64,000 bases of DNA from Acidimicrobiaceae bacterium (GTDB lineage: Bacteria; Actinomycetota; Acidimicrobiia; Acidimicrobiales; RAAP-2). The first letter of the stretch is position 1, and every line of letters begins with the position of its first letter. The stretch covers positions 750-64,749 of the forward strand of contig DAHWOV010000114.1 in NCBI GenBank assembly GCA_027339205.1. Reading direction: 5' to 3'. This document shows positions 24,096-33,370 of this stretch, in pieces. Below the pieces are notes generated by a model. The model was not told the origin of the DNA. It searched no databases and saw only the letters and a list, made by a program, of their open reading frames with translations. The position numbers and the translations under genes were made by a program.

Positions 24096-24464
24096 TCAGC
24101 TGAAGGACGAGCCGCACCCGCAGGTGCGGGTGGCGTTGGGGTTGGTGATGTGGAACCCGGCGCCTTGGAGCCCGTCGGAGTAGTCCAAGGTGGCGCCCGT
24201 GAGCAGCTCCGCGCTGGTGGGGTCGACCACGACCTTCACGCCTCCGAACTCGCGGACGACGTCGTCTCCGTCCTGCTCGGAGTCGAAGAACATCTCGTAG
24301 CTGTAGCCGGAGCAGCCGCCGGGCTTCACGGCGACGCGCAAGGCGAGCTCGCCGGCGCCTCCCTCCTCTGCGAGGAGCTGCGCGACCTTGGCCGACGCGC
24401 TCTCGGTCAGCGTGACGGGGTCGGGCTTCTTGCCGATGCTCACCGACGTCGTCATCGTCGTCAC
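24096..24464 (-). CDS. erpA: HesB/IscA/ErpA-type Fe-S cluster insertion protein
   Basis: 122-aa ORF with LRVAVKPGGCSGYSYEMFFD and the C-terminal signature NPNATRTCGCGSSF. Confidence 0.9.
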   Translation of the reverse strand: MTTMTTSVSIGKKPDPVTLTESASAKVAQLLAEEGGAGELALRVAVKPGGCSGYSYEMFFDSEQDGDDVVREFGGVKVVVDPTSAELLTGATLDYSDGLQGAGFHITNPNATRTCGCGSSFS

Positions 24465-24617
24465 GGTTGCCTCCTTGGGCAGCTCACAGGATACGGCGTC
24501 GCCATGTTACCGGGGCAGTCGCTCGGAGGGCACCGCGAGCCCGAAAGGAGGCTCCTGCCGAGGTGGTGCCGCGCGGCGGTCGGAGGGCTCCGGGAGCGGG
24601 GCCAGTAGGCTTCGGTC

Positions 24618-25844
24618 GTGTCAGCGGCAGGCGGACCCCCCAGCGAAGCAGAGGTCTTGGAGCGCCTGCGGGCCGTCGTGGACCCAGAGCTCGGCGACGA
24701 CATCGTCGACCTCGGCATGGTCCGCGCCGTCAGCGTGTCCGAGTCCGGGGACGTCCGCGTGGCGATCGCCCTCACGATCGCGCGTTGCCCGCTGCGTGCC
24801 CAGATCGAGCGGGACGTCCAAGGACGCGTCGAGGCGATCCCCGGGGTGCGCTCGGTGGAGCTGTCGACCGCCCAGATGGACGCCGCCGAGCGCGCTGCGG
24901 TGATGGCGCGGGCCCGGTGGAAGGCGCGTGAGCACGCGCCGGCCACGGCGGTGCCGCCCCGTGCCAGGGTGCTGGCGATCGCCTCGGGAAAGGGCGGGGT
25001 CGGCAAGTCGTCCGTCACGGTCAACCTCGCCGCTGCGCTCGCCCGGCGCGGGCTCACGATCGGGCTGCTGGACGCGGACATCGGCGGGTTCTCGGTCCCC
25101 CGCCTCCTCGGGATGGAGGGCCGCCTCGAGGCCCGCCAGGGCAAGATGGTCCCGCTGGAGCGGCTCGTCGGGGACGGCGTGCTGCGGGTGCTGTCGATGG
25201 GCTTCCTCGCCGAGGAGGACCGCGCGGTCATGTGGCGCGGCCTGCTGCTCAACCGCGCCGTGGAGCAATTCCTCCAGGATGCCCACTGGGGGGACCTCGA
25301 CTATCTCCTGGTCGACCTGCCCCCAGGAACCGGTGACGTCCAGATGGGCTTGGCCCGCATGTTGCCCCGCACCGAGATGCTCATCGTCACGACGCCGCCG
25401 CTCGCTGCCCAGCGCGTCGCTGCCCGAGCCGCGGACATGGCACGCCGGGGCTACCTGCGAGTTGCGGGGGTCGTCGAGAACATGAGCGACTTCACCTGCG
25501 AGCACGGGACCACGTACGCGCTCTTCGGCTCGGGAGGAGGGACGCGGCTCGCAGCGGAGCTCGGCGTACCGCTCGTCGGGACTATCCCGCTCCACCCCGA
25601 CATCGCCCGGGCAGGCGACACCGGGGAGCCGGTGGCCCTGGGCGAGGGCCAGCTCGCCCTCGTCTTTGCCGGCCTGGCCAGGGCGGTCGCAGACGACATC
25701 GCTCCGATCGTCGAGACCTCGGGCTGCACGGCGCGGCTCCTCGCTGCCGTCGCGGACGCCGCGGGCACGCCCGCAGGGCGGCGGGCGCGCGGCCCGGGCG
25801 GTCAGCCGGCGGGCACCCCGGTCGAGGCGACCGCCGAGCGGTAG
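24618..25844 (+). CDS. Mrp/ApbC/NBP35-family Fe-S cluster carrier ATPase with N-terminal DUF59 domain
   Basis: The DUF59-like N-terminus (VVDPELGDDIVDLGMVRAVSV) is followed by the deviant Walker A IASGKGGVGKSSVTVNLA, then DLPPGTGD. The typical CxxC region is replaced by SDFTCEHGTTYALFGSGGG. Confidence 0.9.
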   Translation: MSAAGGPPSEAEVLERLRAVVDPELGDDIVDLGMVRAVSVSESGDVRVAIALTIARCPLRAQIERDVQGRVEAIPGVRSVELSTAQMDAAERAAVMARARWKAREHAPATAVPPRARVLAIASGKGGVGKSSVTVNLAAALARRGLTIGLLDADIGGFSVPRLLGMEGRLEARQGKMVPLERLVGDGVLRVLSMGFLAEEDRAVMWRGLLLNRAVEQFLQDAHWGDLDYLLVDLPPGTGDVQMGLARMLPRTEMLIVTTPPLAAQRVAARAADMARRGYLRVAGVVENMSDFTCEHGTTYALFGSGGGTRLAAELGVPLVGTIPLHPDIARAGDTGEPVALGEGQLALVFAGLARAVADDIAPIVETSGCTARLLAAVADAAGTPAGRRARGPGGQPAGTPVEATAER

Positions 25845-26710
25845 GTCGGGACGGAGGTCCCCTCGACCTCGAGAGCCCGACCCTCGTCGGCGAGCTTGCG
25901 CAGGTGCGCCCACAAGGACAGGCGGGCGATCGGGAACCGGGACGCGTCGACGTCCTCGTAGACGGAGGGCACAAGCTCGTCCAAGGTCGCAGAGCCTGCG
26001 TCGTCGAGCGCTCGTATGACGCGCGCTTCTCGTGCGAGGCGGTGCGCGATCACCGTCTCGACCACCTTGTGGGGTTCGCCGAGCAGGCGACCGTGGCCCG
26101 GGGCGATCGCCTCGGGCAGGGGATCGAGCCCGAGCACGCGTCGCAGGCTGTCGAGGTACCGGGCCATGTCGCCGTCGGGGGGCGCGACGACGACGGTCAC
26201 CCGGTCCATGATGTGGTCGCCGGAGAGGAGGATGCGGGGCTCCTCGAGGAGCCAGCACAAGTGGTCGCTCGAGTGCCCGGGGGTGTAGAGGGCCTGCATC
26301 CGGAACGAGCCGGCGTCGAGCACGAAGCCGTCGCGCGCCTCGACGTCCGGGACGAATCCCGGGCGGGCGGCGAACCCGACGACCGCCGCGCCCGCCAGCG
26401 CCGCCAGGCGTGTGGCACCGGGTGCGTGGTCGGCGTGGGCGTGGGTGACGACCACCCAGCGGATCCGGTCACCGGCCGTCGCGGCCGCTTCGAGCAGCCG
26501 GCCGAGGTGCACGGGGTCGTCGGGACCCGGGTCGACCACCGCAACGTCGCCGGCGCCGACGAGATAGGTGTTGGTCCCTGGGCCGGTCATGACGCCCGGG
26601 TTGGGCGCGGTGAGGCGTCGCAGCCCGGGAGCGAGCGCGACGACCCGACCGGGTGCCGGCTCGGGACCCGTTCCGGTGTCCGGCATCGGTGGGGGAGCCG
26701 CCTCAGCCAT
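25802..26710 (-). CDS. MBL-fold metallo-hydrolase
   Basis: The ATG at 26710 (MAEAAPPPMPD) begins the plausible part. It has GTNTYLVG, the zinc motif VVVTHAHADHAPG, and YTPGHSSDHL. The 5' remainder of track ORF 25802-27565 is an out-of-frame read through the NUDIX gene, so I rejected it. Confidence 0.8.
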   Translation of the reverse strand: MAEAAPPPMPDTGTGPEPAPGRVVALAPGLRRLTAPNPGVMTGPGTNTYLVGAGDVAVVDPGPDDPVHLGRLLEAAATAGDRIRWVVVTHAHADHAPGATRLAALAGAAVVGFAARPGFVPDVEARDGFVLDAGSFRMQALYTPGHSSDHLCWLLEEPRILLSGDHIMDRVTVVVAPPDGDMARYLDSLRRVLGLDPLPEAIAPGHGRLLGEPHKVVETVIAHRLAREARVIRALDDAGSATLDELVPSVYEDVDASRFPIARLSLWAHLRKLADEGRALEVEGTSVPTYRSAVASTGVPAG

Positions 26711-27647
26711 GGCCCGTCGCGGGTCGACGCGGCCCGCCCGCGGCCGAGCCTCCGGGCTCGCCGTAGCCGGGCTCGCCGTAGCCGGGCTCGCCGGGAAGGA
26801 GCAGCCGCGCCCCGCTCCCGTGCCCCACCATTCGCGGGAGGATGGTGGGGACCGCCCTCGGCGAAGACGCCGCGGCGAGGAGCTCGGGCGCAGTCGCGAA
26901 CCGGCCGATCGCTTGGAGGTTCTTGATCGTGGGCAGGATGAGCTCCATCTGCCCCGCCCTGTGCCGCTCCAGCGCCTCCGCCGGCCGGACCCAGACGTCG
27001 GAGATGGTCTCGCCGGCATCGTGTGCGGGCGTTTGCCCCTCGGGCGCGACGGCGACGAAGAAGCGGGTGTCGTACCGGCGGGGGGACCCCTCTGGGGTGA
27101 TCCAGTGCGCGAAGTAGTGGAGCGAGTCGATCGAGAGCGCCAGCCGCTCCGTCTCCAAGATGTCGAGGAACGAGCGCGTGCCCGAGTTGAGTGCGGCACG
27201 GTGGCGTGCGAACCGCTCCGCGACCCCGGTGTCGGCGAACGAGACGGGGCAGCCGCCGGCGCTCGAAGCGAGGAGCAGCCCGGCCTCTTCGAAGCACTCC
27301 CGGATCGCGGCGACCCAGTAGGCGAGCCCACCGGATCCGACCCCGAGCATGGTGCTCGCGGCCTCGTCGGAACGATCTCGGAAGAGCCGCTCGGCCCTGG
27401 GACCACGATCTGCGGCGTCCACCGCGCCGCCGGGGAAGACGTACGCGCCGCCCACGAAGTCCGCCTGCAGGCTCCGGCGTAGCATGAGGACCTCGAGAGG
27501 TGCGCTCGGGTGCGGGCCGTCTCGGACCACCATGACGGTGGCCGCAGGCGTAGGCGACTTCCCAAGAGGTGCTGTCTCCTTCGACGTCACCGTCTCTTGC
27601 CGATGAGCCTCTCGCCGATGAGCCTCTTGCCGATGAGCCTCCCTCAC
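26703..27647 (-). CDS. NUDIX hydrolase with repeat-expanded termini
   Basis: The Nudix box is GGAVDAADR..AAIRECFEEAGLLLA. GTG at 27647 has a strong AAGGAG 5 nt upstream, so the N-terminal EAHR(Q/R) x3 repeat is probably translated. The C-terminus carries GEPGY x2-3 (15-bp repeat at 26754-26795). It overlaps the MBL gene start by 8 nt. Confidence 0.8.
   Translation of the reverse strand: MREAHRQEAHRREAHRQETVTSKETAPLGKSPTPAATVMVVRDGPHPSAPLEVLMLRRSLQADFVGGAYVFPGGAVDAADRGPRAERLFRDRSDEAASTMLGVGSGGLAYWVAAIRECFEEAGLLLASSAGGCPVSFADTGVAERFARHRAALNSGTRSFLDILETERLALSIDSLHYFAHWITPEGSPRRYDTRFFVAVAPEGQTPAHDAGETISDVWVRPAEALERHRAGQMELILPTIKNLQAIGRFATAPELLAAASSPRAVPTILPRMVGHGSGARLLLPGEPGYGEPGYGEPGGSAAGGPRRPATGHG
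27594..27638. repeat. 15-bp x3 tandem repeat at the 5' end of the NUDIX gene
   Basis: CTCTTGCCGATGAGC / CTCTCGCCGATGAGC / CTCTTGCCGATGAGC. On the minus strand it encodes EAHRQ-EAHRR-EAHRQ. Confidence 0.7.
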
Positions 27648-27859
27648 GGCTTCTCCTTCGCCTCGTCGCCCTCCCGGGCCACGTCGGCCGAGGATACCGG
27701 TGGCCCGGTCCTCTCAGGCCCGAATGCCACCGGCCTCCGGGCCTGGTCTACGCTGGGCAGGACGCGGTGGCCCGTGCGTCCGTGGGGGGCGCCGCCCCCG
27801 GCCGTGCGGGTCGGAGCCGCGCGCCTCTCACAGCACTCGATCAAGGAAGCTCCAGCACA

Positions 27860-28945
27860 ATGGCGGACAGTGCAAGTGACAAGCCCCGGCCCAACGCTGC
27901 AGACAAGGAGCGCAGCCGGCAGCTGAGCCGCCCGGTGAGCGGCAAGGAGGCAGCGAGGACGTCCACGGGCGGCGGTCGCCGAGCGCCACAGGGCCGGCCG
28001 CGCCAGGGGGCCCAGGGGAACGGACGTGGCCCGGCGCCGCGCCAGGCCGCCCGCACGGCCCCACCGCGGTCCGCCGGCCGTCGCCCGCCGGCGCGCCGGC
28101 CGGTGCGCCCGGCGCGCTCCCGCCAGAACATCTTCATCTGGGGTGCGATCGCGCTCGTCGTCATCATCGTGGGCGTGATCGTCGCGGTCAGCCAGACCTC
28201 CTCGAAGACAACGAAGGGGATCACGTACCACTCGACGCCGGTCCCGGCGACCGTGCTGCACGAGATCACCCACGTCCCCACCGCCTCGTACAACGCGGTC
28301 GGTACCGGCATCGCAGGCGCGATCAGCCCGCCCCGGGTCACAAGCGGGCAGAAGTTGCTCAAGATCAACGGCAAACCCGCCATGTTCTCGGTTCTCGGAG
28401 AGTTCTGCCCCTACTGCGCGGCGGAACGCTGGGCGATCATCACCTCGCTGTCGCGCTTCGGCTCCTTCACCGGGCTCAAGACCATGCAGTCCTCGCCTGT
28501 CGACGTCTATCCGCGTACCCAGACGTTCACCTTCCGCAGCGCGAAATACACGAGCCCGTACCTCAGTGCGGATCTTCTGGAGCTCTACGGTCAGGACAAG
28601 GCGACAGGCAGGCACCCGGTCCTCACGAGGCCCACCAAGGCCGAGCTCGCGATCATGCAGAAGTACGACACGTCGGGCACAACACGATCCGGCACGATCC
28701 CGTTCACCGACATCGGGAACAAGGTCTTCTTCGCGGGGGCGAGCTACAACCCCAACCCGCTGCAGGGGCTCTCGCGGGCAGCCATCGCGGCGTCGCTCAA
28801 GAACCCCAAGAGCCCGATCACCAAGCTGATCCTCGGCACCTCCAACTACATGTCCGCTGCCATCTGCAACATCGACGGAGGGAAGCCCGGCGCGGTGTGC
28901 TCGAGCCCCGGGGTGAAGGACGCCGCGAAGGCGCTGAAGCTGTGA
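27860..28945 (+). CDS. Membrane-anchored CPYC thioredoxin-fold-like protein (DUF929-like), paralogue A
   Basis: The ATG at 27860 opens a basic low-complexity N-terminus, then one TM helix (IFIWGAIALVVIIVGVIVAV). The extracytoplasmic domain has FSVLGEFCPYCAAERWAIITSLSRFGSF and a C-terminal Cys pair AAICNIDGGKPGAVCSSPGV. The DUF929 name is from memory. Confidence 0.75.
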   Translation: MADSASDKPRPNAADKERSRQLSRPVSGKEAARTSTGGGRRAPQGRPRQGAQGNGRGPAPRQAARTAPPRSAGRRPPARRPVRPARSRQNIFIWGAIALVVIIVGVIVAVSQTSSKTTKGITYHSTPVPATVLHEITHVPTASYNAVGTGIAGAISPPRVTSGQKLLKINGKPAMFSVLGEFCPYCAAERWAIITSLSRFGSFTGLKTMQSSPVDVYPRTQTFTFRSAKYTSPYLSADLLELYGQDKATGRHPVLTRPTKAELAIMQKYDTSGTTRSGTIPFTDIGNKVFFAGASYNPNPLQGLSRAAIAASLKNPKSPITKLILGTSNYMSAAICNIDGGKPGAVCSSPGVKDAAKALKL

Positions 28946-28992
28946 GCACATGACGACGACCCCGAGCATGTGAGCACGACCATGAGCACGAC

Positions 28993-29637
28993 GTGAGCAC
29001 CACCCCTACGAGATCCAGGCCCACGAGGCCGCCCACCCGCATCACGCGGCGCGAACGGGCAGAGATGCAGTCCCGATCGGCGCGGGCCCGGCAGGAGGCG
29101 CCCCCGAGCACCCTCGCGCGTGCGGTGCGCTTCTGGAAGAAGCCCGACCCCGACACGAACGCCGTGCTCGAGCCTCCCCGCTGGCGCCCCTACGCCGCGT
29201 TCGCGCTCACGCTCATCGGCTTCGGGGTGTCGAGCTACCTCACGGCGGCCCACTTCTCGGGCGCGAAGCTCGCGTGCTCCGACAGCGGCATCGTGAACTG
29301 CGAGGCTGTCACGACGAGCGCGCAGTCCTACTTCCTCGGCGTGCCAGTCGCCCTGTGGGGCCTCCTCTACTACGCGGCGATGGGCGCGCTCAACCTCCCG
29401 GCCGCGTGGCGCTCGGCGGACCGGCGCATCCACGCGCTCCGGCTCGCCATGGGCGCCCTCGGCATCTGCTTCGTCCTCTACCTCGTCTCCGCTGAGCTCT
29501 TGATCATCAAGAACATCTGCCTGTGGTGCACCGGGGTGCACGTCGTCACGTTCCTGCTCTTCGTCCTGCTCGTGACCACCGTTCCCCAGATGCTCGGTTG
29601 GGGCGCGACAGGCGCGGCACAGGACTGGACAGGCTGA
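28993..29637 (+). CDS. Vitamin K epoxide reductase (VKOR) family protein
   Basis: Four predicted TM helices. The loop Cys pair is CSDSGIVNC followed by SAQSYFLGVPVALWGLLYY, and the active-site CxxC (NICLWCTGVH) sits in the last helix. The start could be GTG 28993 or ATG 29064. Confidence 0.8.
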   Translation: MSTTPTRSRPTRPPTRITRRERAEMQSRSARARQEAPPSTLARAVRFWKKPDPDTNAVLEPPRWRPYAAFALTLIGFGVSSYLTAAHFSGAKLACSDSGIVNCEAVTTSAQSYFLGVPVALWGLLYYAAMGALNLPAAWRSADRRIHALRLAMGALGICFVLYLVSAELLIIKNICLWCTGVHVVTFLLFVLLVTTVPQMLGWGATGAAQDWTG

Positions 29638-29683
29638 TCGGCGCTCGCCCGAGCCGCTTCGTTCCCGAGCTGCATCGTCGGAG

Positions 29684-30613
29684 ATGACGACCAACGACCC
29701 CGTTGCCGGCGGCGCACCGCCGGCTCCTCCCGTAGATCCCGACGCTGCGGTGCGCCGCCCCGCGACGTCGCTCCTCACGTGGGGGACGGTTGCGCTCGTC
29801 CTCGTGATCGTGGTGGTGCTCGTGGTGATCAAGCTCACCGGCACCCCGGCGGTCTCGACACCCTCGGCCGCCGTCACCCCGTCGCCGGCACCGCCTGGCG
29901 TCGTGAAGGCCGTCACCGAGATCCCGCCCTCCGTGTACGACGCCGTCGGGGTCAGGTCGTCCGAGGCGGCCCTGATCCCGCCGGTCCTCCTCCACGGGCA
30001 ACCTGCGCTCACCGTCGACGGCAAGCCCGAGGTGGTCTTCGTCGGCGACGAGTTCTGCCCGTACTGCGCTGCCCAACGGTGGGCGCTCGTCGCCGCGCTT
30101 TCGCGCTTCGGCAGCTTCGGCGACACCCTCTACGCCACGCAGTCCGGCTCGAACGAGGCGTTCCCGGGCACGCCCACCTTCACCTTCGACGGCACCCGCT
30201 ACCGGTCCAAGTACCTCGCCGTGACCCTCGTCGAGCGCTACGGCGACCAGAAGAACGCTGCGGGCACGGCGTACGCGCCACTGGAGCACCCCAACTCGAC
30301 GGTGAGGGCGTTGCTCGCCAAGTACGACCACGCCACGGGAGGCTCGCCGGGCGGGGTCGTCCCGTTCGTCGACGTCGCCAACAAGGCGATCGTGGCAGGG
30401 GGGCAGTTCTCCCCCTCCGTCCTCCAGCAACTGAGCGCGAACGAGATCGCCTCGGGCCTGACCGACGCCAGGGACCCCGCAACCCAGGCGATCGTCGCCT
30501 CGGCGAATTACCTCACCGCGGCCATCTGCGAAGCTGACGGGCAGGTGCCGGCGCGAGTGTGCTCCAGCCCCGGGGTGGGCGCGGCTGCGCACGCCCTCGG
30601 CATCACACCCTGA
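29684..30613 (+). CDS. Membrane-anchored CPYC thioredoxin-fold-like protein (DUF929-like), paralogue B
   Basis: Same architecture as 27860-28945: TM helix LLTWGTVALVLVIVVVLVVI, VFVGDEFCPYCAAQRWALVAALSRFGSFG, and the C-terminal AAICEADGQVPARVCSSPGV. Confidence 0.75.
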   Translation: MTTNDPVAGGAPPAPPVDPDAAVRRPATSLLTWGTVALVLVIVVVLVVIKLTGTPAVSTPSAAVTPSPAPPGVVKAVTEIPPSVYDAVGVRSSEAALIPPVLLHGQPALTVDGKPEVVFVGDEFCPYCAAQRWALVAALSRFGSFGDTLYATQSGSNEAFPGTPTFTFDGTRYRSKYLAVTLVERYGDQKNAAGTAYAPLEHPNSTVRALLAKYDHATGGSPGGVVPFVDVANKAIVAGGQFSPSVLQQLSANEIASGLTDARDPATQAIVASANYLTAAICEADGQVPARVCSSPGVGAAAHALGITP

Positions 30614-30676
30614 CCGCCGGGCCGGGGTCCGTTCGAGTCGGGGTCTACGCGGGTCGAGTTCCGCCCGGGTCGGGGT

Positions 30677-30934
30677 CTACCCGGCACGAGGCTCCAAGAG
30701 CTGCTTTCGCTCCATCTCGTTGAGCCCGCCCCAGATGCCATGCAGCTCCCGGATCCTGATGGCGTAGTCCAGGCACTCCTCCCGCACGATGCACCCGGCA
30801 CAGATCTCCTTCGCCCGGGCCTCGCGCTCGAGCCGCTCGTCCTTGCGCTCGGCGTGCTCCGGCGGGAAGAAGGCCGTCGACTGAGGTCCCCTGCAAGCCG
30901 CCTTGGCCTGCCACGCCTCTCCTGCGCTCCGCAT
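30677..30934 (-). CDS. whiB: WhiB-family (Wbl) Fe-S transcription factor
   Basis: 85 aa from the ATG at 30934: WQAKAACRG..FFP..ICAGCIVREECLDYAIRIRELHGIWGGLNEMERKQL. It has four Cys and the GIWGG turn. It is divergent from an ArsA-like pair, as whiB4 (Rv3681c) is from Rv3679/Rv3680 in M. tuberculosis, from memory. Confidence 0.9.
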   Translation of the reverse strand: MRSAGEAWQAKAACRGPQSTAFFPPEHAERKDERLEREARAKEICAGCIVREECLDYAIRIRELHGIWGGLNEMERKQLLEPRAG

Positions 30935-31067
30935 CGCCACTGCTCCGCCCCCTTCACGTGCGCTGACAACAGTACCGTCGGGTTGCAACTGCAAACAAGG
31001 GCGCTGAGCAGGGCTTTGTGTGACAACTTGCCTCGCGCGCGCTCGGCCGCAGCTACGCTCGCCCGAG

Positions 31068-32069
31068 ATGGACGTCGCTGCGTGGTGCACCCAGAGCCGT
31101 GTGTGGGTCGTCGCGGGCAAAGGCGGCGTGGGAAAGACCACCGTCAGCGCGATCCTCGCAGCGACCGCTGCGGCGGCCGGCCTGTCCGTCCTCGTGATCG
31201 AGCTCGAGGGCAAGCACGGCCTCGGTGCCACCTTCGGGCGCAACGGCCCGGTCGGCTACCAGGCGGTGACGCTGCGGGGTCCGGGGCCCAAGGATGCGCC
31301 GTCCGAGGGCAAGCCCGGCCCGGGCGGGATCTGGGCCAGGCGCCTCACCCCCGATGACGCCCTCCTCGAGTACCTGGCGGACCACGGCCTCCAGCGGGTG
31401 TCCCGGCGGCTCGTGTCGACCGGCGTGCTCGACGTGGTCGCCACCGCGATCCCCGGCATTCGCGACGTCCTCGTGCTCGGCAAGGTGAAGCAGCTCGAGC
31501 GTGGCGGCGTCGCCGACATCGTGATCCTCGACGCGCCAGCGACCGGCCACGCGGTGACCTTCCTCACCTCGGCGAGCGGCCTGCTCGACGCGGCGCGCGG
31601 TGGTCCGGTTCGCCATCAGGCGGCCGAGGTCGTGGACCTGCTGCGCGACCCGACGCGCTGCCGGGTCCTGCCCGTCACGCTCCCCGAGGAGATGCCGGTC
31701 AGCGAGACCGTGGAGTCCGCGCGGGTGCTGCGGGACCGGGTGGGGATCCACTTCGGTGCGGTGGTGGTGAACTGCTACGAGGACGGTCCCGCCGAGCTCG
31801 AGGTGCCCGCAGCCGACGCGGCCCGGGACGCGGGCGTGACGCTCGATGCGCCGACGCTCGAGATGCTCGAGGCGGCGCGCACCTTCCGGCTCGAGCGGAT
31901 CCACCTCGTCGAAGAGCAGGTCGAACGCCTTGGCTGCGAGCTCCCCCTCCCCCAGCTCCGTGTGCCGAGGCTCTCCGTGCCGGCGATCGGGCCCGCCGAG
32001 CTCGACCGCCTCGCCAGCGAGCTGGCGGGCGCGATCGAAGCGCTCCCCGCGCCTTCGGACGCCCCATGA
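31068..32069 (+). CDS. ArsA/Get3-like ATPase (Rv3679-like)
   Basis: The ATG at 31068 starts MDVAAWCTQSRVWVVAGKGGVGKTTVSAILAA (deviant Walker A), with DAPATGH as the switch motif. The stop overlaps the next gene (ATGA). Confidence 0.85.
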   Translation: MDVAAWCTQSRVWVVAGKGGVGKTTVSAILAATAAAAGLSVLVIELEGKHGLGATFGRNGPVGYQAVTLRGPGPKDAPSEGKPGPGGIWARRLTPDDALLEYLADHGLQRVSRRLVSTGVLDVVATAIPGIRDVLVLGKVKQLERGGVADIVILDAPATGHAVTFLTSASGLLDAARGGPVRHQAAEVVDLLRDPTRCRVLPVTLPEEMPVSETVESARVLRDRVGIHFGAVVVNCYEDGPAELEVPAADAARDAGVTLDAPTLEMLEAARTFRLERIHLVEEQVERLGCELPLPQLRVPRLSVPAIGPAELDRLASELAGAIEALPAPSDAP

Positions 32070-33370
32070 GCGTCACACCTTCGGCCGAGCCGGGCGCTCC
32101 CGGCGCGGGCGGCGACGAGAGCGGCGGCCCCGACGTGCCTCCCGACATGCCTCTCGAAGCTGACGTGAGGCCGGGCCCAGGCCCCGCGGGCCGAGGCACC
32201 GCGGACCGGGGCCCCGGGAACGGGGACCTCGGGAACGGGGACCTCGGGGACGGGGACCTCGGGGACGTCGTCGAGCAGCGGAGCGTCGTGGTCTGCTGCG
32301 GACCCGGAGGGGTCGGGAAGACCACCGTGTCGGCGAGCTTCGCCCTGGAGGCGGCACGCCGCGGGCGGCGCGCGTGCGTGGTGACTGTGGATCCGGCGCG
32401 GCGCTTGGCCGACGCCATGGGCATCGAGTCGCTGCACAACGAACCCGTCGAGGTGGTCGGGGACTGGCCGGGCACGCTCCACGCGGTGATGCTCGATGCC
32501 AAGAGCACCTTCGACGAGCTGGTTGAGCGCTACTCGCGCACAGCCGATCAGGCGGCAGCGATCAAGGCGAACCGCATCTATCAGAACATGACCGGGGCCC
32601 TGTCGGGCACCCAGGAGTACATGGCCATGGAGAAGCTCTACGAGCTCGTGGGCTCCGGCGACTTCGACGTGGTGATCGTCGACACTCCGCCGACGCGCAA
32701 CGCGCTGGACCTTCTCGACGCGCCCAGACGTTTGACCCAGTTCCTGGAGAACCGCCTGTTCCGCGCCCTGATGGCGCCGACGCGCCTGTCGCTCAAGGCG
32801 CTCAACGTCGCCACGCAGGCGCTGCTGCGGACGATCTCACGAGTTGCCGGCGCGGAGATCGTCCAAGACGCCGTCGCCTTCTTCCAGGCATTCCAGGGGA
32901 TGGAGGTCGGCTTCGACGAACGGGCGCGCGCGGTGCGCGAACTGCTCGCGGACCCGCGGACCGCCTACGTGGTGGTCACCTCCCCGCGCGCCGACGCGGT
33001 GGAAGAGGCGCGGTACTTCATTTCGCGCCTTGACGAGCGCGGCGCTCGCACGGCTGCACTGGTCGTGAACCGCATCCATCCGCGGTTCGGCCCCGGCGAG
33101 GTGAAGCTGGCGGCCGCGTTCGAGGGGACTGCGCTCGCTGCGCTCGCTCGCAACGCGCGGGAGCTCGACGAGACCGCCGACGAGGAAGAGCGGTCCTTCG
33201 CTGGGCTTGCTGCGGCGACCGCGCCGGCCCCCCTCGGACGCATCCCGCTGCTCGGGACCGACGTCCACGACGTGGGTGGGCTCGTCGCCGTCGCCGATGC
33301 GCTGTTCTGCGACGGCGGACCAGACCATCCCGCCGACCCGCCGGCGGGCTACGCCGGGGCTGTCGGGTAG
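32066..33370 (+). CDS. ArsA/Get3-like ATPase (Rv3680-like) with repeat-bearing N-terminus
   Basis: VVVCCGPGGVGKTTVSASFAL, VTVDPARRLA, and VVIVDTPPTRNALDLL. The N-terminal extension contains GNGDL-GNGDL-GDGDL. Confidence 0.85.
   Translation: MSVTPSAEPGAPGAGGDESGGPDVPPDMPLEADVRPGPGPAGRGTADRGPGNGDLGNGDLGDGDLGDVVEQRSVVVCCGPGGVGKTTVSASFALEAARRGRRACVVTVDPARRLADAMGIESLHNEPVEVVGDWPGTLHAVMLDAKSTFDELVERYSRTADQAAAIKANRIYQNMTGALSGTQEYMAMEKLYELVGSGDFDVVIVDTPPTRNALDLLDAPRRLTQFLENRLFRALMAPTRLSLKALNVATQALLRTISRVAGAEIVQDAVAFFQAFQGMEVGFDERARAVRELLADPRTAYVVVTSPRADAVEEARYFISRLDERGARTAALVVNRIHPRFGPGEVKLAAAFEGTALAALARNARELDETADEEERSFAGLAAATAPAPLGRIPLLGTDVHDVGGLVAVADALFCDGGPDHPADPPAGYAGAVG
32216..32266. repeat. 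15-bp x3.4 tandem repeat encoding G(N/D)GDL units
   Basis: GGGAACGGGGACCTC x2, then GGGGACGGGGACCTC, then GGGGAC. Confidence 0.75.

What the first reader, a model, noticed from the sequence alone, without database searches (positions are those of the whole stretch)
27860..30613. VKOR flanked by two membrane-anchored CPYC proteins: candidate uncharacterised disulfide-bond module
**Seen in the sequence.** Two paralogues (27860-28945 and 29684-30613) share one architecture:
- a cytoplasmic basic tail;
- a single TM helix;
- an extracytoplasmic domain with F-C-P-Y-C-A-A-(E/Q)-R-W-A;
- a conserved C-terminal AAIC-x9-VCSSPGV pair.

Between them lies a VKOR with the loop pair C-x7-C and the active-site CLWC.

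**Established knowledge.** VKOR substitutes for DsbB in Actinomycetota and reoxidises a DsbA-like partner.

**Inference.** The DUF929-like proteins are the VKOR partners or substrates here, a DsbA analogue with a glutaredoxin-like CPYC motif. To my knowledge this family has no experimentally assigned function.
Basis: partly seen in the sequence, partly recalled or inferred. Interest (0 to 1): 0.6.

Follow-up and report, generated by a model that had tools for sequence, protein, structure and literature searches.

The report
DUF929 thioredoxin-like partners flanking VKOR
An uncultured Acidimicrobiales bacterium has a conserved three-gene operon in which the membrane enzyme VKOR is flanked by two surface-anchored proteins of the unstudied DUF929 family, which very probably replace the missing DsbA and put disulfide bonds into exported proteins.

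Summary
**Observation:** confirmed. Three same-strand genes, 46-47 nt apart, encode DUF929 (27860-28945), VKOR (28993-29637) and DUF929 (29684-30613).

**Interpretation:** supported by comparative evidence.
- **Gene order.** Of 80 related loci, 37 are DUF929-VKOR-DUF929, 32 are DUF929-VKOR and 11 hold DUF929 alone. Nine of ten DUF929-alone genomes carry VKOR elsewhere, usually with its own upstream DUF929.
- **Actinomycetota (401 genomes).** All 16 DUF929 genomes have VKOR (background 23%), adjacent in 15.
- **Replacement of DsbA.** Only 1 of those 15 has a classical DsbA-like Thioredoxin_4 protein, against 58 of 77 other VKOR genomes. There, Thioredoxin_4 occupies the same slot upstream of VKOR.
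- **Own genome.** It has no exported DsbA and no CcdA/DsbD.
- **Chloroflexota.** The association recurs (52/62 against 90/189).
- **Structure.** A confident AlphaFold model (pLDDT 92) has thioredoxin-fold element order, with CPYC at the start of helix 1 and an invariant proline before strand 3. It has a beta-rich insert instead of DsbA's helical cap. Nothing in the PDB matches significantly.

**Limits:** function is inferred, not shown. I found no experimental paper on DUF929. This scan has already noted the same pair in at least 67 other genomes.

**Verdict:** a new variant of the DsbA-VKOR system.

The parts
27860..28945 (+). Upstream DUF929 gene (P0001, 361 aa). It has a 90-aa Arg-rich cytoplasmic tail, one TM helix and an extracytoplasmic thioredoxin-like domain. 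This is the 'core' copy found upstream of VKOR in every pair.
   Evidence: Pfam PF06053 E 4.9e-22. It falls in the single 'upstream' clade of 70 sequences (support 96/90). CP[YF]C is kept in 69/69 upstream copies.
28130..28186 (+). Single TM helix of P0001 (residues 91-109, IFIWGAIALVVIIVGVIVA)
   Evidence: Kyte-Doolittle 19-mer mean 3.07. The N-side has 23 K/R against 5 D/E, which predicts N-in/C-out.
28406..28417 (+). CPYC active-site motif of P0001 (C183, C186)
   Evidence: Read from the translation; positions
28865..28900 (+). C-terminal Cys pair of P0001 (C336-x10-C347), presumed structural disulfide
   Evidence: Both columns are Cys in 119/119 aligned DUF929 sequences
28946..28992 (+). 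47-nt spacer between DUF929 and VKOR. It holds four copies of TGAGCAC (the first reusing the DUF929 stop codon at 28943-28945) and two mini-ORFs. No terminator was found.
   Evidence: Close relatives have only 5-12 nt here, followed by ATGAGC...
28993..29637 (+). VKOR (P0002, 214 aa). It has an Arg-rich N-tail and the VKOR core, with no fused thioredoxin domain.
   Evidence: Pfam PF07884 E 9.6e-27. It aligns to the Synechococcus VKOR structure 4nv2/4nv5 (E 7e-4). It is the only VKOR in the genome.
29275..29301 (+). VKOR loop cysteine pair C95-x7-C103, the shuttle pair that would take electrons from the partner
   Evidence: It aligns with the loop Cys region of Synechococcus VKOR
29518..29529 (+). 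VKOR active site C176-L-W-C179 at the start of the last TM helix
   Evidence: It aligns with CMYC of Synechococcus VKOR
29638..29683 (+). 46-nt spacer between VKOR and the downstream DUF929; no terminator-like site
29684..30613 (+). Downstream DUF929 gene (P0003, 309 aa). It has a short tail, one TM helix (residues 31-49, nt 29774-29830) and a thioredoxin-like domain. This is the accessory copy.
   Evidence: Pfam PF06053 E 6.6e-22. AlphaFold models: pLDDT 86 for the full protein and 91.7 for the domain. It falls in a small 'downstream' clade separate from the main downstream clade.
30056..30067 (+). CPYC active-site motif of P0003 (C125, C128), at the N-terminus of model helix 126-139
   Evidence: One of nine sequences of this clade has SPYS instead.
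30527..30562 (+). C-terminal Cys pair of P0003 (C282-x10-C293) in the C-terminal helical region
   Evidence: Invariant in 119/119 sequences. The helices 265-284 and 290-293 that carry them are modelled at high confidence.

Best explanation
The three genes form one operon for making disulfide bonds outside the cytoplasmic membrane.

**Proposed mechanism.**
- VKOR uses a membrane quinone (presumably menaquinone) to form a disulfide at its CLWC site.
- It passes that disulfide through its loop pair C95/C103 to the CPYC site of a membrane-tethered DUF929 protein.
- DUF929 then oxidises cysteine pairs in exported proteins, which is the role DsbA or MdbA plays elsewhere.
- Electrons flow back: substrate, then DUF929, then the VKOR loop cysteines, then CLWC, then quinone.

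**Roles of the two copies.**
- The upstream copy is the obligatory partner.
- The downstream copy is an accessory paralogue. It is most likely a second oxidase with a different substrate range.

**Shown here.**
- Family memberships and motifs.
- A single TM helix in each DUF929 protein.
- A confident thioredoxin-like model.
- Conserved adjacency and co-occurrence with VKOR.
- A distribution complementary to classical DsbA.

**Inferred.**
- The direction of electron flow.
- The oxidase role.
- The quinone.
- The role of the second copy.
For: **Gene order.**
- Of 80 related loci, 37 are D-V-D, 32 are D-V and 11 are D alone. None is V-D only.
- Close relatives have only 5-12 nt between the DUF929 stop and the VKOR start.

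**The 'alone' copies.**
- They sit at the same syntenic site.
- Nine of ten such genomes have VKOR elsewhere.
- In six of them that VKOR has its own upstream DUF929.

**Co-occurrence.**
- Actinomycetota: 16/16 DUF929 genomes have VKOR against 77/385 others (Fisher 2.4e-11), adjacent in 15/16.
- Chloroflexota: 52/62 against 90/189 (Fisher 2.3e-7), adjacent in at least 29.

**Displacement of DsbA.**
- Strong Thioredoxin_4 matches occur in 1/15 genomes with a DUF929-VKOR pair, against 58/77 VKOR genomes without DUF929 (Fisher 7.5e-7).
- In at least 23 genomes Thioredoxin_4 lies directly upstream of VKOR on the same strand, the same slot as DUF929.

**Own genome.**
- It has no PF13462 match.
- Its only PF01323 hit is a cytoplasmic single-Cys CPFA protein.
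- It has no CcdA/DsbD.
- Both DUF929 genes and the only VKOR lie in this operon.

**Structure.**
- The model has strand-CPYC-helix, then an invariant Pro227, strand 3, strand 4 and a helix (pLDDT 91.7).
- CP[YF]C is kept in 69/69 upstream copies. The C-terminal Cys pair is kept in 119/119.

**Exported proteome.**
- In a crude home-made screen, exported or anchored candidates favour even Cys counts (35:15) over cytoplasmic ones (506:583). Fisher 8.5e-4.

**VKOR.**
- All four catalytic cysteines align with the solved Synechococcus enzyme.
Against: - No experiment exists on any DUF929 protein.
- Foldseek finds no significant structural relative. The best hit is E 0.31 with TM 0.3-0.46.
- A profile comparison with actinobacterial Thioredoxin_4 matches only 19 columns around CxxC, with probability 6.8%. 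The DsbA likeness therefore rests on fold topology and genomic context, not on detectable homology to DsbA.
- The co-occurrence statistics are not corrected for phylogeny. Eight of the 16 actinobacterial genomes belong to one family.
- The genome is a 91%-complete MAG, so the absence of DsbA or CcdA is not proof.
- Ten of 62 Chloroflexota genomes with DUF929 lack VKOR, so DUF929 can work with something else.
- No DUF929-VKOR fusion was seen among the ten longest of the top 150 representatives. One apparent fusion looks like a frameshift.
- I had no model coordinates, so I could not check CPYC/Pro227 or C282/C293 proximity.
Confidence: 0.75

Rival explanations
1. Division of labour. The upstream DUF929 is the DsbA-like oxidase recycled by VKOR. 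The downstream DUF929 is not an oxidase but a disulfide isomerase, a reductase or a redox-independent holdase for exported proteins, comparable to DsbC or DsbG.
For: - Upstream and downstream copies form separate clades that are conserved over long times.
- Only downstream-type copies have lost active-site cysteines: SPYS, SPYC and NPFC in P0011, P0026, P0031 and P0078, and 2 of 39. A non-redox role must therefore be possible.
- Half of the loci do without the downstream copy.
Against: - No CcdA/DsbD-type reductant supplier is detectable in the genome, so an isomerase would have no known electron source.
- CPxC is retained in about 95% of downstream copies.
- The residue before the conserved Pro is hydrophobic, not the Thr typical of DsbC/DsbG-type proteins (the comparison rests on my own knowledge).
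Confidence: 0.25
2. A dedicated system rather than general oxidative folding. The DUF929-VKOR module would serve one specific client or process, such as maturation of a respiratory complex or copper/metal handling. It would be comparable to TlpA, ScsC or CcsX-type thioredoxin-like proteins.
For: - Foldseek's weak hits include TlpA and ScsC beside DsbA.
- The locus lies among Fe-S assembly genes and next to WhiB.
- Some genomes carry DUF929 without VKOR.
Against: - Dedicated thioredoxin-like proteins of that kind are reductants fed by CcdA/DsbD, which is absent here.
- VKOR is an oxidant generator.
- DUF929 is complementary in distribution to the general oxidase family Thioredoxin_4 and takes its operon slot.
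- The exported proteome shows an even-Cys bias, so some general oxidase is expected, and no other candidate was found.
- The neighbouring genes are housekeeping genes on other strands or in other operons.
Confidence: 0.1
3. DUF929 proteins are merely abundant substrates of VKOR-dependent oxidation, or VKOR stabilising subunits, with no catalytic thiol-disulfide role of their own.
For: - They carry an invariant, probably structural, C-x10-C pair that itself needs an oxidase.
- A few copies lack the CxxC.
Against: - CPxC sits at the N-terminus of helix 1 of a thioredoxin-like fold, with an invariant Pro at the cis-Pro position. This is the hallmark of a catalytic site.
- The motif is kept in 69/69 upstream copies.
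- VKOR enzymes are not known to oxidise general substrates directly without a thioredoxin-like mediator (established knowledge, for example PMC4555120 and PMC11208910 as read).
Confidence: 0.05

Closest known systems
Actinobacterial DsbA-like oxidase plus VKOR (M. tuberculosis Rv2969c/Rv2968c; MdbA/VKOR of Actinomyces and Corynebacterium; Pfam Thioredoxin_4 PF13462 + VKOR PF07884)
   Same: - A membrane-anchored, extracytoplasmic thioredoxin-fold protein with a CPxC site is encoded directly upstream of a stand-alone VKOR on the same strand.
- I saw this operon layout in at least 23 sampled Actinomycetota genomes.
- Some of these classical proteins even use CPYC.
   Different: - DUF929 is not detectably homologous to Thioredoxin_4 beyond 19 columns around CxxC.
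- Its insertion between strand 2 and helix 2 is beta-rich rather than DsbA's alpha-helical cap.
- It adds a C-terminal helical extension with an invariant Cys pair.
- Here there are two paralogues flanking VKOR.
E. coli DsbA-DsbB
   Same: The logic is the same. A quinone-linked membrane enzyme reoxidises a thioredoxin-fold CPxC protein, which oxidises exported proteins.
   Different: - DsbB is unrelated in sequence to VKOR.
- DsbA is soluble and periplasmic with a helical cap.
- No DsbA was found in this genome.
- I did not search for DsbB.
Synechococcus VKOR-thioredoxin fusion (PDB 4nv2/4nv5)
   Same: The VKOR core has a loop Cys pair and a CxxC, and aligns with P0002. A thioredoxin-like partner is tethered at the membrane next to VKOR.
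   Different: - There the partner is fused to VKOR's C-terminus through a fifth TM helix.
- Here the partners are separate single-pass proteins of another family.
- No DUF929-VKOR fusion was found.
Pfam DUF929 (PF06053), defined on Sulfolobus proteins and assigned to the thioredoxin-like clan by Pawlowski et al. 2010 (PMC3091736)
   Same: Both outer proteins are clear members. The Sulfolobus acidocaldarius control genome has both DUF929 and VKOR.
   Different: The family has no assigned function. The link to VKOR and the replacement of DsbA are not in any paper I could find.

Membership tests
DUF929 (PF06053) | Match to the Pfam model above the gathering score | tested here: met
   79.0 and 78.6 bits against a cut-off of 24.6, covering profile positions 10-205
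VKOR (PF07884) | Match to the Pfam model above the gathering score | tested here: met
   94.2 bits against a cut-off of 27.5
VKOR (PF07884) | Four conserved cysteines: a loop pair plus CxxC at the start of the last core TM helix | tested here: met
   C95/C103 and C176/C179 align with the Synechococcus VKOR structure 4nv2
VKOR (PF07884) | Quinone-dependent disulfide generation | not testable with these tools
   Needs a biochemical assay or E. coli dsbB complementation
Thioredoxin-fold thiol-disulfide oxidoreductase | Strand-helix-strand ... strand-strand-helix order with CxxC at the N-terminus of helix 1 | tested here: met
   In the AlphaFold model (pLDDT 91.7, pTM 0.91), strand 114-121 is followed by C125-P-Y-C128 at the start of helix 126-139
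Thioredoxin-fold thiol-disulfide oxidoreductase | Conserved (cis-)proline loop before strand 3, facing the CxxC | tested here: inconclusive
   Pro227 is invariant and directly precedes strand 228-231. I could not check the cis conformation or the distance to CPYC because no coordinates were available.
Thioredoxin-fold thiol-disulfide oxidoreductase | Significant structural similarity to solved thioredoxin-fold proteins | tested here: inconclusive
   Foldseek's best E is 0.31 (DsbA 7luj), with TM 0.3-0.46. Nearly all hits are thioredoxin-fold proteins but none is significant. Published HHpred p is 1.5e-4 to thioredoxin 1fo5 (PMC3091736).
DsbA / Thioredoxin_4 family (PF01323, PF13462) | Sequence membership in the DsbA families | tested here: not met
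   No PF01323 or PF13462 hit on P0001 or P0003. hhalign against actinobacterial Thioredoxin_4 gives 19 columns and probability 6.8%.
DsbA / Thioredoxin_4 family (PF01323, PF13462) | Alpha-helical cap domain inserted in the thioredoxin fold | tested here: not met
   The insertion (residues about 154-204) is modelled as four or five beta strands
DsbA-like function (works like DsbA) | Extracytoplasmic location of the CxxC domain | tested here: met
   Single TM helix. The N-side has 23 K/R against 5 D/E in P0001, and an RR pair in P0003. Family members occur in an archaeal secretome (PMC8345856). This is a prediction, not an experiment on this protein.
DsbA-like function (works like DsbA) | Genomic coupling to a disulfide-generating membrane enzyme, and absence of another DsbA | tested here: met
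DsbA-like function (works like DsbA) | Oxidising redox potential, reoxidation by VKOR, oxidation of substrates | not testable with these tools
   Needs biochemistry or complementation

The most novel reading that the evidence does not exclude
DUF929 is a structurally distinct, so far unrecognised class of primary disulfide donor. It would have displaced DsbA in situ, in the same operon slot upstream of VKOR, in Acidimicrobiia, many Chloroflexota and (according to unchecked earlier notes of this scan) Dormibacterota and several archaeal lineages.

Standard DsbA-based surveys would then have wrongly scored these organisms as 'VKOR without a partner'. In the three-gene form, the second paralogue would be a specialised helper that can even work without its catalytic cysteines and without any CcdA-type reductant.
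Probability: 0.35. Interest if true: 0.65.

Novelty: new variant of a known kind. Interest (0 to 1): 0.5.

Why it matters
- **Surveys miss it.** Surveys of oxidative protein folding look for DsbA with DsbB or VKOR, using the DsbA Pfam models (for example PMC12453122). Lineages that have VKOR but no DsbA then look incomplete.
- **A candidate for the gap.** If DUF929 is the missing disulfide donor, it fills that gap. The family is sizeable: about 2,800 clusters at 50% identity. It occurs in bacteria and in the archaea where the family was defined.
- **A new scaffold.** It would add a third scaffold to the known disulfide donors, with a beta-rich insert and a disulfide-stapled helical tail.
- **Easy to test.** The claim can be tested by standard complementation of E. 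coli laboratory dsb mutants.
- **Not a new principle.** A thioredoxin-like protein next to VKOR is what a specialist would expect to be its partner. The same pair has already been flagged many times in this scan.

Tried and rejected
1. **Sequence searches against the PDB.** Searches with P0003 and with the family profile gave nothing significant. No member of the family has a solved structure.
2. **Foldseek.** I searched the full-length model and then the soluble-domain model. There were no significant hits. The second prediction raised model confidence but not the match statistics.
3. **hhalign against Thioredoxin_4.** I compared the DUF929 profile with a small actinobacterial Thioredoxin_4 alignment. 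Only the strand 1-CxxC stretch aligned. I therefore do not file DUF929 under DsbA.
4. **Search for DUF929-VKOR fusions.**
   - The ten longest of the top 150 representatives carry no VKOR domain. One has AhpC/TSA and one has zinc ribbons.
   - A 486-aa Chloroflexota ORF holding both domains loses the DUF929 reading after 'IPWMDLANRA'. It is most likely a frameshift, not a fusion.
5. **Promoter and terminator scan.** The operon gave no hits either way, which is uninformative in a 72% G+C genome.
6. **Glutaredoxin-like reading of CPYC.** Rejected, because the same tetrad occurs in classical exported DsbA-like proteins of the phylum.
7. **NCBIfam.** It has no model for the DUF929 proteins.
8. **A wasted call.** One call to the fetch of an annotated region was an error.


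Full report
**What is there.**
- The window is contig C18 of a 2.5-Mb, 91%-complete MAG.
- The closest homologues of its proteins are named Acidimicrobiales.
- On the + strand lie three ORFs separated by 47 and 46 nt, with no terminator-like site between them:
  - 27860-28945 (P0001, 361 aa);
  - 28993-29637 (P0002, 214 aa);
  - 29684-30613 (P0003, 309 aa).
- Pfam assigns P0001 and P0003 to DUF929/PF06053 (E 4.9e-22 and 6.6e-22). It assigns P0002 to VKOR/PF07884 (E 9.6e-27).
- NCBIfam has no model for the DUF929 proteins.
- The two DUF929 proteins are 42% identical over 241 residues.
- These are the only DUF929 genes and the only VKOR gene in the genome.

**Topology.**
- Each DUF929 protein has one strongly hydrophobic segment.
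- In P0001 it follows a 90-residue tail with 23 K/R against 5 D/E. By the positive-inside rule the tail is cytoplasmic and the CPYC domain is outside.
- P0003 has only a short tail. Its RR pair just before the helix is nearly invariant in the family alignment.
- All four cysteines of each protein lie in the outside domain.
- P0002 aligns with the solved Synechococcus VKOR (4nv2/4nv5, E 7e-4). C95/C103 match the loop pair and C176/C179 match the CxxC.
- DUF929 proteins were detected in the experimental secretome of Picrophilus torridus (PMC8345856).

**Fold.**
- With a 33-sequence alignment, AlphaFold2 gave mean pLDDT 86 for full-length P0003. It gave pLDDT 91.7 and pTM 0.91 for residues 65-309.
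- The element order is:
  1. strand 114-121;
  2. CPYC (125-128) at the N-terminus of helix 126-139;
  3. strand 150-153;
  4. a beta-rich insertion (strands at 164-167, 179-184, 186-190 and 197-199);
  5. helix 205-214;
  6. invariant Pro227;
  7. strands 228-231 and 235-238;
  8. C-terminal helices carrying C282 and C293.
- This is the thioredoxin-fold order, with CxxC and the proline loop in the canonical places.
- Foldseek against the PDB found nothing significant. The best hit was E 0.31 (Burkholderia DsbA), with TM-scores of 0.3-0.46.
- Almost all listed Foldseek hits are thioredoxin-fold proteins: DsbA, TlpA, ScsC, TrxP and GST-omega.
- Sequence and profile searches of the PDB found nothing.
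- A profile comparison with actinobacterial Thioredoxin_4 proteins aligned only 19 columns around CxxC.
- DUF929 is therefore a very divergent thioredoxin-like family without a solved structure. Its clan assignment was published in 2010 (PMC3091736).
- I had no coordinates, so I could not measure the geometry.

**Gene neighbourhood.**
- A scan of one genome per species returned 80 loci. Nearly all are from Acidimicrobiales MAGs.
- 37 have DUF929-VKOR-DUF929, 32 have DUF929-VKOR and 11 have DUF929 alone (one is cut by a contig end). VKOR followed only by DUF929 never occurs.
- In close relatives the upstream DUF929 stop and the VKOR start are 5-12 nt apart.
- The 'alone' loci are syntenic with the window: Mrp/ApbC, MBL-fold, Nudix, [DUF929], WhiB, two ArsA-like ATPases.
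- Nine of ten such genomes have VKOR elsewhere.
- In six of them that VKOR has its own upstream DUF929.
- The DUF929-to-VKOR pair is thus the constant core.

**The two paralogues.**
- In a maximum-likelihood tree of 119 DUF929 domains, all 70 upstream copies form one clade (support 96/90).
- Downstream copies fall into a deep clade of 30 and a smaller clade that includes the window's P0003.
- CP[YF]C is kept in 69/69 upstream copies, 29/30 of the deep downstream clade and 8/9 of the smaller one.
- The C-terminal Cys pair is kept in 119/119.
- Active-site loss (SPYS, SPYC, NPFC) occurs only among relatives of the downstream copy.

**Co-occurrence and displacement of DsbA.**

| Sample | DUF929 genomes | VKOR genomes | DUF929 genomes with VKOR | Other genomes with VKOR | Fisher p | Adjacent pairs |
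|---|---|---|---|---|---|---|
| Actinomycetota, 401 genomes | 16 | 93 | 16/16 | 77/385 | 2.4e-11 | 15/16, DUF929 about 100 bp upstream on the same strand |
| Chloroflexota, 251 genomes | 62 | 142 | 52/62 | 90/189 | 2.3e-7 | at least 29 genomes |

- Strong Thioredoxin_4 matches (the family of mycobacterial DsbA and MdbA) occur in only 1 of the 15 actinobacterial genomes with a DUF929-VKOR pair. They occur in 58 of the 77 VKOR genomes without DUF929 (Fisher 7.5e-7).
- In at least 23 of the latter, the Thioredoxin_4 gene lies directly upstream of VKOR on the same strand. This is exactly the slot DUF929 occupies.
- These tests are not corrected for shared ancestry.

**Own genome.**
- It has no Thioredoxin_4 match.
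- Its single PF01323 match is a protein with one Cys (CPFA) and no signal or TM segment.
- It has no CcdA/DsbD match.
- I ran a crude home-made screen using GC3-based gene calls and a heuristic for signal or anchor sequences.
  - 61 exported or anchored candidates were found.
  - Among those with cysteines, 35 had even and 15 had odd counts.
  - Cytoplasmic candidates had 506 even and 583 odd (Fisher 8.5e-4).
  - An even-count bias is the expected signature of an organism that makes extracytoplasmic disulfides.

**Interpretation.**
- The best reading is that DUF929 is the thioredoxin-fold disulfide donor recycled by VKOR, functionally a DsbA/MdbA analogue.
- The upstream copy is the obligatory partner and the downstream copy an accessory paralogue.
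- I hold this at about 0.75.
- The rivals are:
  - a DsbC-like or chaperone role for the second copy (about 0.25, compatible with the main reading for the first copy);
  - a dedicated rather than general system (about 0.1);
  - mere substrates (about 0.05).
- CPYC is not evidence for a glutaredoxin link, because classical exported DsbA-like proteins of this phylum also use CPYC, CPAC and CPVC.

**Known or new.**
- The held literature has three papers that mention DUF929, and none assigns a function.
- Recent Dsb surveys search with DsbA models only (PMC12453122).
- The family has about 2,841 clusters at 50% identity.
- Within this scan the pair is not new. 83 earlier notes in at least 67 genomes describe DUF929 with VKOR, including archaeal and Dormibacterota cases. 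Those are unchecked AI notes and I did not use them as evidence.
- I rate the finding as a new variant of a known kind: a DsbA-VKOR-type module with a different thioredoxin-fold scaffold, here in a duplicated, flanking form.
- Interest is moderate. The inference is robust and easy to test, but the mechanism is what a specialist would expect.

Noticed in passing
L112 (G206:C47:7886-8377), and rows marked '1 TGA' (G373, G245, G384, G271, G232, G127, G362, G395, G284, G071, G351, G219, G041, G258, G329, G193, G154): - Many DsbA-like Thioredoxin_4 genes in the sampled Actinomycetota carry exactly one in-frame TGA. Most of these genomes belong to the family labelled f24.
- In L112 the TGA sits at the first cysteine position of the active site (…VEYADYQ-TGA-PFCGQF…, that is U-P-F-C).
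- This suggests selenocysteine-containing DsbA-like oxidases.
- I did not check for SECIS elements or sel genes.
   Followed up: partly
window 28943-28999: - The spacer between the upstream DUF929 and VKOR holds four copies of TGAGCAC and two mini-ORFs (ATG…TGA).
- The stop of the last mini-ORF overlaps the VKOR GTG start (GTGA).
- Close relatives have only 5-12 nt here, followed by ATGAGC.
- This looks like a small local duplication of the VKOR start region.
   Followed up: partly
window 24096-33370; L041: - The synteny Fe-S (HesB) / Mrp-ApbC / MBL-fold / Nudix / [DUF929-VKOR cassette] / WhiB / two ArsA-like ATPases is conserved.
- Some Acidimicrobiales keep only a single DUF929 at this site and have their DUF929-VKOR pair elsewhere.
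- The redox-sensing WhiB gene (30677-31000, minus strand) is the constant downstream neighbour.
   Followed up: partly
P0011, P0026, P0031, P0078 (metagenomic homologues of P0003): Relatives of the downstream copy have degenerate active sites: SPYS, SPYS, SPYC and NPFC. They keep the rest of the domain and the C-terminal Cys pair, which suggests a redox-independent role for some accessory copies.
   Followed up: partly
L123 (G474:C4:229500-232300), minus-strand ORF 651-2111: - A 486-aa Chloroflexota ORF contains the N-terminal half of DUF929 followed by a complete VKOR.
- The DUF929 reading degenerates after 'IPWMDLANRA'.
- It is therefore probably a frameshift or pseudogene rather than a true fusion.
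   Followed up: partly
P0161 and P0170 (representative-library hits): Two multidomain DUF929 proteins were seen. One has an N-terminal AhpC/TSA (peroxiredoxin-like) domain. The other has cytoplasmic double zinc ribbons before the TM helix.
   Followed up: no
window 27860-28129 and 28993-29190: Both the upstream DUF929 and VKOR begin with long, Arg/Pro/Gly-rich, probably disordered cytoplasmic tails (90 and about 65 residues). The downstream DUF929 lacks one. The role is unknown.
   Followed up: no
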